Origin: Heptranchias perlo
Lineage: Eukaryota
Direction: 5' to 3'
DNA length: 64,000 bases
NCBI RefSeq assembly: GCF_035084215.1
Contig: NC_090344.1
Span: forward strand, 47,554,001-47,618,000
Below are positions 41,701-43,540 of this stretch, one piece after another. Positions within the stretch are counted from its first letter, which is position 1; each line of letters opens with the position of its first letter. The position numbers and the translations under genes were made by a program. The notes under the pieces were generated by a model, which was not told where the DNA came from, searched no databases, and saw only the letters and a program-made list of their open reading frames with translations.

Positions 41701-43540
41701 CGTTGTTCCTCCCCTTACCGAGGTAAAGTTCAGGCGATGGGGAGTCCTGAGAGGAGGTATATCGTCTTGGTGACCATTCTTCACCTGGGAGCCAAGATAA
41801 TGAGTGTCACACTGATCCTGACGTTCACAATACCTTGAAGTCAATTGGGTATCATGGAGGTCTCTCTAACTCGAGCCAAGGATAATACCTGGATCACCGT
41901 TACCTGTGTGACTCAGTACAGCAGCATACTGGGCAAGACTTGCTCCCATTGCTCTGTGTAGCGTTGTAAGATGTAAGGAATCTCACAACACCAGGTTATA
42001 GTCCAACTGTTTTATTTAAAAATCACAAGCTTTCGGAGGCTTTCTCCTTCGTCGGGCCACACTCGCTCACCCGACGAAGGAGAAAGCCTCCGAAAGCTTG
42101 TGATTTTCAAATAAAACAGTTGGACTATAACCTGGTGGTGTAAGATTCCTTACATTTGTCAACCCCAGTCCATCACCGGCATCTCCACATCATAGCGTTG
42201 TAAGCACATTCAAAACAAAATAATTCATGATTTTGCTAGAAATACTGATCAAGGGAAATCTTCAGCGCATTTTCCACTGTTAATATGCATAGTGACGAAA
42301 GCAGCTCTTTATTCCCCCCATCCCCCCCCCCCCCGTGACGTCTTGACCCACGGTCATGAAGGATGGTAACATTAAATGCGGTAACATTGCTATATGGATT
42401 ATGATCTGGATCTGAAGATGTTGGTGATGTATTCCCCCCCGCCTTGCCAAAACAAAAGCATTTTGATGCAATATGATTCTACAAGTATGGACATCATTCT
42501 TTTACTTCCCACTTGTGGCCCTGCTTCACATGCATGGTTAGGCACTGAAAGGTGGGATCACAGCCAAGCCTAAATGTCTCCACCTCTTAACCTGCACAGA
42601 CATACGTTCCAGCACAAGAGCCTTGGCAGAGGCTAATTGTACTGTTTCCCTGGCTTATAGTAGCTGACTCAGGACAGATCAAGAATTGAACCTTTGGTCC
42701 TGTCAATCTGAGTGCCAGTGCCTGTAAAGTTTGAGCCATTGAGTTGAGTGCTGTACATTGACTTAAGATTGCTTGATGTTTTGCTGCAATTCTACTATTA
42801 AACCTCTCTCTCCAAATGGTTACACAAGTTCAATTATCAGTTGCAACAGAACATTGCAAGACGCTGGAAAAACGAGGCTCCACATTAAAATTTCAGTTCT
42901 TACAATATTAATTTTAATGCTTGCTATCTGAGGTACAACCTTTCATCTCTCTCTGGTCTGGAGAAGTCTGCATTTTTGTATGACTGTCGACTTGATTAGA
43001 TTAGAGAATTAAGATTTGTTAACCAGCTCGCTCAACGCCTTAATTTACTTCACATGTGACTTCAATTATATTTTTTCAAACTGGCAAATAGCACTGGAAT
43101 GAACTACACTATAAAATGAAAGAATAAATCCACCACTGTTCATTGTGAGATTTTAAAAAGGATCCACGTCAGCTCTTTGGGAATTCGGGGCATGGATTGG
43201 AGTGAGCGTTGTATAGTAGTGAGATGCTTCGCAAGTAAAACTGGGCTGAATACCGCCTTTTTTTTGGGGCAGGCCATCAATTTGGAAAGCCTGCAATCAA
43301 ACCTCGCATCGGTGCAGCGACAGTTGGGCGCACTTCATGGTGGGGGCGCTTAATAATAATTTTTAAAAATATGGTCTTCCAGCATTCTCCTTTTAACCTG
43401 TACCTTTTTTTTCAGGGGTGAAGAAGAAAGCCAGCTTTATTACGCCAGTACCAGGAGGAGTTGGGCCCATGACCGTTGCCATGCTGATGAAGAACACCAT
43501 CATTGCAGCCAAGAAACTTTTGAAGCTGAGAGAGAACTGA
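23706..43540 (+). CDS. MTHFD2: Mitochondrial bifunctional methylenetetrahydrofolate dehydrogenase/cyclohydrolase, 334 aa, 8 exons
   Basis: join(23706-23797,30067-30251,33458-33580,36445-36597,37406-37513,39573-39665,41105-41230,43416-43540) = 1005 nt, intact. Motifs [55 protein letters not shown]. Synteny with MOB1A and SLC4A5 argues against MTHFD2L. Confidence 0.95.
26909..27063. other. Assembly gap (155 N)
   Basis: Run of N. Confidence 1.
27064..29025. repeat. ~2-kb C/T-rich simple repeat (CnTCTTCCCTT, then CnTCCTCTTCTCTTT units)
   Basis: Almost pure C/T next to the gap; source of the spurious poly-Pro and poly-Gly ORFs. Confidence 0.95.
29515..29868 (+). mobile_element. CR1-type LINE 3' fragment
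   Basis: TGAGGGGTGACCTAATAGAGGTC...GGAGCATAAACA..GGCACAGACCAGTTGGG; opposite-strand relatives at about 37590-37890 and 41275-41370. Confidence 0.7.
30067..30251 (+). CDS. MTHFD2: MTHFD2 exon 2
   Basis: [14 protein letters not shown]...[14 protein letters not shown] / GTATGG. Confidence 0.95.
31878..32488 (+). mobile_element. CR1-type LINE, 5'-truncated (ORF2 C-terminus + 3'UTR)
   Basis: Translates [53 protein letters not shown], typical of the CR1 ORF2 end. Confidence 0.88.
33458..33580 (+). CDS. MTHFD2: MTHFD2 exon 3
   Basis: [12 protein letters not shown]...[15 protein letters not shown] / GTAAGA. Confidence 0.95.
35150..35460 (+). mobile_element. CR1-type LINE 3' fragment (second family)
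   Basis: CCACCTAGAAGGACAAG...GGGTCAAAATCCTGGAACTCCCT...AGGGATGGGCAATAAATG; copies at 22717, 51519, 54440. Confidence 0.75.
36445..36597 (+). CDS. MTHFD2: MTHFD2 exon 4
   Basis: [22 protein letters not shown]...[19 protein letters not shown] / GTGATT. Confidence 0.95.
37406..37513 (+). CDS. MTHFD2: MTHFD2 exon 5
   Basis: [41 protein letters not shown] / GTGAGG. Confidence 0.95.
38430..38757 (-). mobile_element. CR1-type LINE 3' fragment
   Basis: Reverse complement of the family at 5130 and 48200 (GAGCAGGAGTAGGCCAT...GATCATGGCTGATCT). Confidence 0.75.
39573..39665 (+). CDS. MTHFD2: MTHFD2 exon 6
   Basis: [36 protein letters not shown] / GTGAGC. Confidence 0.95.
41105..41230 (+). CDS. MTHFD2: MTHFD2 exon 7
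   Basis: [24 protein letters not shown]...[13 protein letters not shown] / GTAATG. Confidence 0.95.
41971..42192 (+). mobile_element. Fold-back non-autonomous Penelope-type element with hammerhead motifs and 12-bp TSD
   Basis: 86-bp arms 41971-42056 and 42070-42155 (about 3 mismatches), 37-nt tail; TAGCGTTGTAAG at 41959-41970 and 42193-42204. Confidence 0.85.
43416..43540 (+). CDS. MTHFD2: MTHFD2 exon 8 (last)
   Basis: [46 protein letters not shown] acceptor. Confidence 0.95.

What the first reader, a model, noticed from the sequence alone, without database searches (positions are those of the whole stretch)
41959..42204. Fold-back mini-retroelement with back-to-back hammerhead ribozyme motifs
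Seen: a 222-bp insertion with 12-bp TSD made of an 86-bp inverted repeat, a 13-nt loop and a 37-nt tail. The right arm reads TCAC-CCGACGA-A-GGAG-AAAGC-CTCC-GAAA-GCTT-GTGA, then AATAAA: stem I UCAC/GUGA, core C(U>C)GACGA...GAAA, stem II GGAG/CUCC, palindromic AAGCUU in place of stem III. The left arm has the same core on the minus strand. Known: Penelope-like elements carry minimal type I hammerheads in their terminal repeats, thought to cleave as dimers. Inference: a non-coding, retrozyme-like family mobilised by Penelope RT/GIY-YIG that also forms long dsRNA in MTHFD2 intron 7.
Basis: partly seen in the sequence, partly recalled or inferred. Interest (0 to 1): 0.7.

Follow-up and report, generated by a model that had tools for sequence, protein, structure and literature searches.

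The report
Truncated Penelope insertion with inverted end
This is most likely a very short, dead copy of a Penelope-type jumping gene whose end repeat was inserted twice head-to-head, a known by-product of how these elements insert, and its ribozyme motif is probably buried in a hairpin.

Summary
The anatomy is exactly as described: 12-bp target duplication, 86-bp arms (3 mismatches), 13-nt spacer, 37-nt tail, in the last intron of an MTHFD2 gene. It has the same outer ends but a different junction, and both informative arm variants (2 of 2) group arms by copy. So the inversion looks made anew at each insertion, not copied as a unit. An inverted, 5'-truncated terminal repeat, a 30-40-bp tail on one side and 8-10-bp duplications are the published anatomy of PLE insertions; this is the case with no ORF between the arms. 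Only 1 of 4 arms is an intact ribozyme, the two motifs lie on opposite strands and cannot dimerise in one RNA, and the hairpin is predicted to beat the ribozyme fold by 49-57 kcal/mol. Retrozyme membership fails. Copy number and the autonomous partner could not be checked. Mostly ordinary, with some value as a footprint of PLE priming.

The parts
41959..41970 (+). Copy A, left target-site duplication (12 bp; its first T could belong to the element at the right end)
41971..42056 (-). Copy A, inverted 5'-truncated terminal repeat (pLTR) arm without tail; hammerhead core 42055-42049, stem II and GAAA on the minus strand, stem I only 2 bp
42057..42069 (+). Copy A, 13-nt spacer; at least its last 3 nt are element sequence (also present in copy B's inverted arm) and complete stem I
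42067..42103 (+). Minimal type I hammerhead: stem I 42067-70/42100-03, core 42071-77 (C at position 4), extra A 42078, stem II 42079-82/42088-91, GAAA 42092-95, palindrome 42094-99, predicted cut between 42099 and 42100
   Evidence: layout compared
42070..42155 (+). Copy A, direct pLTR arm; holds AATAAA at 42110-42115 and ends in a small hairpin just before the tail
42156..42192 (+). Copy A, 37-nt A/C-rich PLE tail (66% A+C over 42156-42193), on one arm only
   Evidence: tail concept
42193..42204 (+). Copy A, right target-site duplication
49571..49579 (-). Copy B, upstream target-site duplication (9 bp)
49485..49570 (+). Copy B, inverted arm (extends 3 nt further to 49482, so stem I is complete, but G8 is changed to U)
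49470..49484 (-). Copy B, 15-nt junction: 3 nt of inverted arm plus a partial repeat of the stem II sequence; unrelated to copy A's spacer
49384..49469 (-). Copy B, direct arm; core intact with U4, stem I only 1 bp
49345..49383 (-). Copy B, 39-nt tail, ending in ATG
49336..49344 (-). Copy B, downstream target-site duplication
41231..43415 (+). Host intron of copy A: last intron of the MTHFD2 gene (context, not part of the element)

Best explanation
Each copy is a separate, extremely short insertion of an endonuclease-bearing Penelope-like element. Shown here: two copies with the same two outer ends, a tail on one arm only, target duplications of different length (12 and 9 bp), different junctions, and arms that run about 37-50 nt past the ribozyme cut site (so the template was uncleaved RNA). 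Inferred mechanism: the PLE protein nicks both target strands 9-12 bp apart. Each nicked end primes reverse transcription inside the element RNA, one at the arm/tail boundary and one at the tail end. Both cDNAs stop within about 13 nt upstream of the hammerhead core, most simply because the RNA starts there. Their ends are joined by repair or template jumping, giving inverted arm + junction + direct arm + tail. No ORF was copied, so the insertion is dead. On either strand the antisense arm is transcribed first and pairs with the ribozyme, so copy A most likely does not self-cleave; in MTHFD2 pre-mRNA it is an 86-bp intronic hairpin with no shown function.
For: Published anatomy: an inverted 5'-truncated copy next to the pLTR and a 30-40-bp tail at one end; inverted pLTR, 31-bp tail and 8-10-bp TSDs, head-to-head the most frequent arrangement. 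In vitro, an anole PLE protein cuts and extends both strands, starts reverse transcription at two internal sites whose spacing is the tail, in an AC-rich stem-loop, and uses uncleaved RNA. Two-copy comparison: junctions unrelated; of 9 variable arm columns in 86, 2 are informative and both group arms by copy, 7 are singletons. Ribozyme layout matches the published PLE consensus, with the same stem I as the lamprey PLE row and the same palindrome as the turtle row. A decayed RT + GIY-YIG element of another family in this window ends in the same layout with compensatory stems and has a 14-bp TSD. Forcing the ribozyme fold costs 49-57 kcal/mol in the fold-back, 4.9 in the single arm plus tail, 0 in the isolated 51-mer.
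Against: Only two copies were available, and only two informative sites; arm-to-arm conversion or two fold-back subfamilies could give the same pattern. No ORF-bearing member of this family was found: none in the window and no protein hit for the arm's open frame. That all 4 arms end within 13 nt of the core is also what a dedicated short RNA would give. Two-end priming is my inference; the published proposal for head-to-head inversions is self-priming on an antisense template. Rfam finds no hammerhead here.
Confidence: 0.75

Rival explanations
1. A non-autonomous fold-back family: the whole hairpin RNA is transcribed and retrotransposed as a unit by a PLE protein.
For: Both copies have nearly the same size (222, 226 bp) and identical outer ends. 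Non-autonomous PLE derivatives exist (Chlamys; retrozymes), and pLTR sequence alone can support insertion in trans.
Against: Junctions are unrelated and arm variants group by copy. 3 of 4 arms lack an intact ribozyme. An 86-bp duplex would have to be reverse transcribed through. Fixed outer ends are expected anyway from two fixed priming sites.
Confidence: 0.12
2. A short non-autonomous single-arm (solo pLTR, SINE-like) RNA is the template, and each insertion then inverts as in the best explanation. Same event, different source RNA.
For: All 4 arm ends lie within 13 nt upstream of the core. Most minimal hammerheads in animal genomes occur as single motifs, with some pairs 100-700 bp apart on opposite strands.
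Against: A transcript of a full element that starts in its upstream pLTR gives the same ends, so no extra entity is needed; no solo copy of this family is in the window.
Confidence: 0.08
3. A MITE or foldback DNA transposon, or a microRNA hairpin, with a chance hammerhead look-alike.
For: Long inverted repeat; Rfam's best matches are generic microRNA hairpins.
Against: The repeat is not terminal on the right (37-39-nt tail outside it); TSD lengths differ (12, 9); microRNA scores are far below gathering (56 of 180, 38 of 62 bits); the motif passes a descriptor that 0 of 60 shuffles pass in full and covaries with a proven PLE end.
Confidence: 0.03
4. Assembly or library fold-back artefact.
For: Long inverted repeats are a known artefact class (own knowledge).
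Against: Arms have diverged (3 and 4 of 86), both copies have exact TSDs, and two independent copies share the ends.
Confidence: 0.01

Closest known systems
EN+ Penelope-like element insertions with inverted pLTR and tail (Penelope/Poseidon, Neptune; Arkhipova 2013 PMC3846280, Craig 2021 PMC8557442)
   Same: Head-to-head inverted 5'-truncated terminal repeat, 30-40-bp tail on one side, short variable TSD, hammerhead in the repeat.
   Different: No ORF and no second direct pLTR between the ends; the clade cannot be assigned without the ORF.
Minimal type I hammerheads of metazoan PLEs (Cervera and de la Pena 2014, PMC4209133)
   Same: Core, extra nucleotide after position 9, G10.1-C11.1, palindrome in place of helix III, short stem I, AU-rich 3' flank.
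   Different: Copy A has C at position 4 (0 of the 44 rows I read in Fig. S3 do; 41 have CUGA, 3 UUGA); stem II is only 4 bp; the motif is preceded by its own antisense.
Poseidon element of Anolis carolinensis, PAc (Frangieh 2024, PMC11167929)
   Same: Two fixed 3' ends one tail apart, A/C-rich tail, copies made from uncleaved RNA.
   Different: Different sequence family; that paper's text that I read does not model inversions; its ORF starts inside the ribozyme, whereas here an ATG sits at the tail end (role untested).
Animal non-LTR retrozymes (Cervera 2020 PMC7229834; Li et al. bioRxiv 10.64898/2026.07.22.740005)
   Same: Short, non-coding, PLE-pLTR-related, type I hammerhead.
   Different: Retrozymes are head-to-tail repeats with same-strand ribozymes that release circular monomers; this is a head-to-head pair that cannot.
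Rearranged Penelope copies with long inverted repeats in Drosophila (PMC3681739)
   Same: PLE-made inverted repeats able to form dsRNA; there siRNAs map to the inverted regions.
   Different: No small-RNA data here; the hairpin is 86 bp and intronic.

Membership tests
PLE minimal type I hammerhead | Core CUGANGA + H, then GAAA | tested here: inconclusive
   Copy B direct arm has CUGACGAA; both copy A arms have C at 4; copy B inverted arm has U at 8. U4C is reported to lower activity considerably in vitro.
PLE minimal type I hammerhead | Stem II closed by G10.1-C11.1, extra nucleotide after position 9 | tested here: met
   features listed
PLE minimal type I hammerhead | No helix III; palindromic 15.2-16.2; NUH cut site | tested here: met
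   4 of 4 arms; free dimer prediction pairs the two 6-nt palindromes
PLE minimal type I hammerhead | Stem I of about 4-5 bp | tested here: met
   Complete in 2 of 4 arms (A direct, B inverted); lost by truncation in the other 2
PLE minimal type I hammerhead | Stem covariation | tested here: inconclusive
   None within the family (4 arms). Against the second PLE family 8 of 10 pairs change on both sides, but that is in effect two lineages and a structure I derived from these sequences.
PLE minimal type I hammerhead | Self-cleavage as dimer or with protein help | not testable with these tools
   Needs an assay
Rfam hammerhead families | Covariance-model match | tested here: not met
   0 hammerhead matches at E <= 10; probably because the motif lacks helix III (inference)
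EN+ PLE insertion | Inverted 5'-truncated pLTR, head-to-head | tested here: met
   2 of 2 copies
EN+ PLE insertion | 30-40-bp tail at one end | tested here: met
   37 and 39 nt
EN+ PLE insertion | Short TSD of variable length | tested here: met
   12 and 9 bp; 8-10 bp
EN+ PLE insertion | Same repeat adjoining an RT-GIY-YIG ORF elsewhere in the genome | not testable with these tools
   No eukaryote genome collection on hand; not in the window; protein searches with the arm's open frame negative
Animal non-LTR retrozyme | Head-to-tail tandem units, each with a same-strand complete hammerhead | tested here: not met
   0 of 2 copies; definition
Animal non-LTR retrozyme | Abundant circular monomer RNA | not testable with these tools
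   No expression data
MITE | Terminal inverted repeats and fixed-length TSD | tested here: not met
   Tail lies outside the repeat; TSD 12 vs 9 bp

The most novel reading that the evidence does not exclude
A self-propagating, ORF-less fold-back retroelement family exists in this vertebrate: the hairpin RNA is copied as a unit by a PLE protein, the antisense arm keeps the hammerhead off, and many intronic copies feed dsRNA into small-RNA or editing pathways that act on the autonomous element.
Probability: 0.12. Interest if true: 0.55.

Novelty: new member of a known kind. Interest (0 to 1): 0.22.

Why it matters
As it stands it adds one more PLE terminal-repeat family. Its use is as a footprint: how PLEs make inverted repeats and tails is called undefined in the literature. 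ORF-less fold-backs record both priming sites, the nick spacing and the junction within 250 bp. A genome-wide set could therefore separate two-end priming from antisense self-priming and map the RNA 5' end. If such hairpins are common in introns they are also a ready source of endogenous dsRNA.

Tried and rejected
Rfam scans of 1201 and 74 nt: no hammerhead family, only sub-threshold hairpin matches. Protein searches with the 58-residue open frame across copy A: no candidate at near length, and 0 of 5 candidates significant at longer length. Word-based search with the second family's endonuclease frame: 0 of 10 candidates significant; the exhaustive search then found 823. Pfam on 5 raw frames of the second family (4 from the long copy, 1 from the short): no RT or GIY-YIG match. 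None of the 150 fetched proteins matches copy A or B convincingly (best E 0.025). Whether the ATG ending copy B's tail is the start of the partner ORF stays untested: the frame is only 19 residues. The source organisms of the PLE-like protein hits stay unknown. The paper on dimer cleavage of PLE hammerheads (Lunse et al.) was not held; I know it only from its citation. Literature searches listed no paper on this family or on ORF-less PLE fold-backs as a class; Repbase/Dfam and subscription journals were not searchable, so this is no proof of absence. The prokaryote, phage and plasmid DNA collections were not used as irrelevant; viral and metagenome collections were not checked. Rejected: MITE, microRNA, artefact, retrozyme, and a cis dimer between the two arms.

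Full report
Observation. It folds into one hairpin far more stable than any of 200 shuffles. It lies on the sense strand of the last intron (41231-43415) of a gene whose seven located exons are MTHFD2-like; one exon prefers MTHFD2 over the MTHFD2L-type chain by 95 to 72 bits. 'Intron 7' assumes an upstream exon that I did not locate. The host is a vertebrate with PLEs, hence not a mammal or bird by the survey; the repeats remind me of cartilaginous fish, which is recall and was not tested.

The ribozyme motif. The right arm has a 4-bp stem I, the core with C at position 4, one extra A, a 4-bp stem II closed by G-C, GAAA and a palindrome in place of helix III. These are the features listed for minimal hammerheads of metazoan PLEs (PMC4209133: parts 1-2 of 4 of the text; part 2 of 3 of one supplement; the other supplement could not be searched). 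Its stem I equals that of the lamprey PLE row and its palindrome that of the turtle row. My descriptor hits 3 sites in 64 kb, all arms of this family, against 1 hit in 60 shuffled windows and none with stem I. Alone, the 51-nt motif folds into this shape as its best structure, and two copies pair through the palindrome. Against it: Rfam shows no hammerhead match; C4 occurs in 0 of the 44 rows I read and U4C is reported to reduce activity considerably in vitro (PMC3088659, passages).

A second copy. Self-BLAST found a 226-bp relative on the minus strand at 49345-49570 with a 9-bp TSD. It starts at the same base, has the same arms and a 39-nt tail, but its junction is a partial repeat of stem II and is unrelated to copy A's spacer. 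Of 9 variable columns among the 4 arms, 2 are informative and both pair the arms within a copy; 7 are private changes. That is weak alone (two sites), but with the unrelated junctions it points to inversion at each insertion. Only copy A's direct arm is an intact ribozyme: two arms lost stem I by truncation and one has G8 changed.

What it is. Passages from three papers describe this anatomy as usual for endonuclease-bearing PLEs: an inverted 5'-truncated copy at the 5' end and a 30-40-bp tail at one end (PMC8557442; PMC8969392), with 8-10-bp TSDs and head-to-head inversions most frequent (PMC3846280). Opposite-strand pairs of minimal hammerheads 100-700 bp apart, ascribed to truncated PLEs, were already noted in schistosomes. 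The window gives an internal comparator: a decayed element at 12793-14754 with a 14-bp TSD is colinear with RT + GIY-YIG proteins and ends in a degenerate motif of the same layout, whose stems differ by compensatory changes in 8 of 10 pairs (in effect two lineages). It is a different family and not the partner. The partner of A and B was not found.

How it works. The anole PLE protein cuts and extends both target strands, starts reverse transcription at two internal sites whose spacing is the tail, and uses uncleaved RNA (PMC11167929, parts 1-2 of 4). This fits what is shown here: two fixed outer ends one tail apart, an A/C-rich tail behind a small hairpin, and arms that extend past the cut site. 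My inference is that the two nicked ends each primed a short cDNA, one per start site, that both ran off near the RNA 5' end just upstream of the core, and that the ends were joined by repair or template jumps. The published alternative for such inversions is self-priming on an antisense template; I cannot exclude it.

Consequences. Because the arms are head-to-head, each strand reads antisense first and motif second. Forcing the ribozyme fold costs 56.7 kcal/mol in the full RNA and 49-57 in three nascent lengths, against 4.9 in the single arm with tail. The two motifs cannot form a dimer in one transcript, and cleavage is unlikely. An 86-bp hairpin in MTHFD2 pre-mRNA is predicted; PLE inverted repeats yield siRNAs in Drosophila (PMC3681739, passages), but nothing here shows that for this locus.

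Comparison. It works like, and very probably is, a truncated PLE insertion; the one defining feature left untested is linkage to an ORF. It is not an animal retrozyme: those are same-strand tandem repeats (PMC7229834, passages; bioRxiv 10.64898/2026.07.22.740005, parts 1-3 of 5; its supplements were not seen and may list cartilaginous-fish families). Dimer cleavage of PLE hammerheads I saw and in a review (PMC6765202, passages). It is not a MITE, microRNA or artefact. Searches listed no paper on this family or on ORF-less fold-backs as a class, but repeat databases were not available.

Verdict. Real, correctly measured, and largely explained by known PLE biology. New member of a known kind; interest 0.22. 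A unit-copied fold-back family remains possible at about 0.12.

Noticed in passing
window 12793-14754 (+): Decayed, 5'-truncated RT + GIY-YIG Penelope-like element of another family, 14-bp TSD (12779-12792 / 14755-14768), degenerate minimal hammerhead at about 14661-14701; inside an intron of an hnRNP H/F-like gene (gene name from recalled resemblance of frames).
   Followed up: yes
window about 52400-52720 (+): Short copy of that second family with a 47-bp inversion at its 5' junction (52402-52448 / 52456-52502) and a degenerate hammerhead; no TSD found. The inverted piece is internal sequence, not the 3' end, so it is a different kind of inversion from copies A and B.
   Followed up: partly
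window 41963-41972 versus the arm near 42138-42147: Copy A's target end plus the first two inserted bases repeat 10 nt of the family arm consensus close to the inner priming site; may reflect homology-guided priming or chance (one case).
   Followed up: no
window 49345-49347 (-): Copy B's tail ends in ATG; in other PLEs the pLTR and tail overlap the ORF start, so this may be the partner's start codon.
   Followed up: partly
window 42110-42115 (+): The direct arm puts an AATAAA in sense orientation in the last MTHFD2 intron, though inside the predicted hairpin.
   Followed up: no
window about 27000-29050: Long C/T-rich low-complexity tract next to a 155-N gap; possibly an assembly-quality issue.
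   Followed up: no
window, many sites (e.g. 17038-17315, 31874-32489, 35309-35462, 51500-51657): Several dispersed repeat families that look like LINE/SINE 3' ends; not classified.
   Followed up: no
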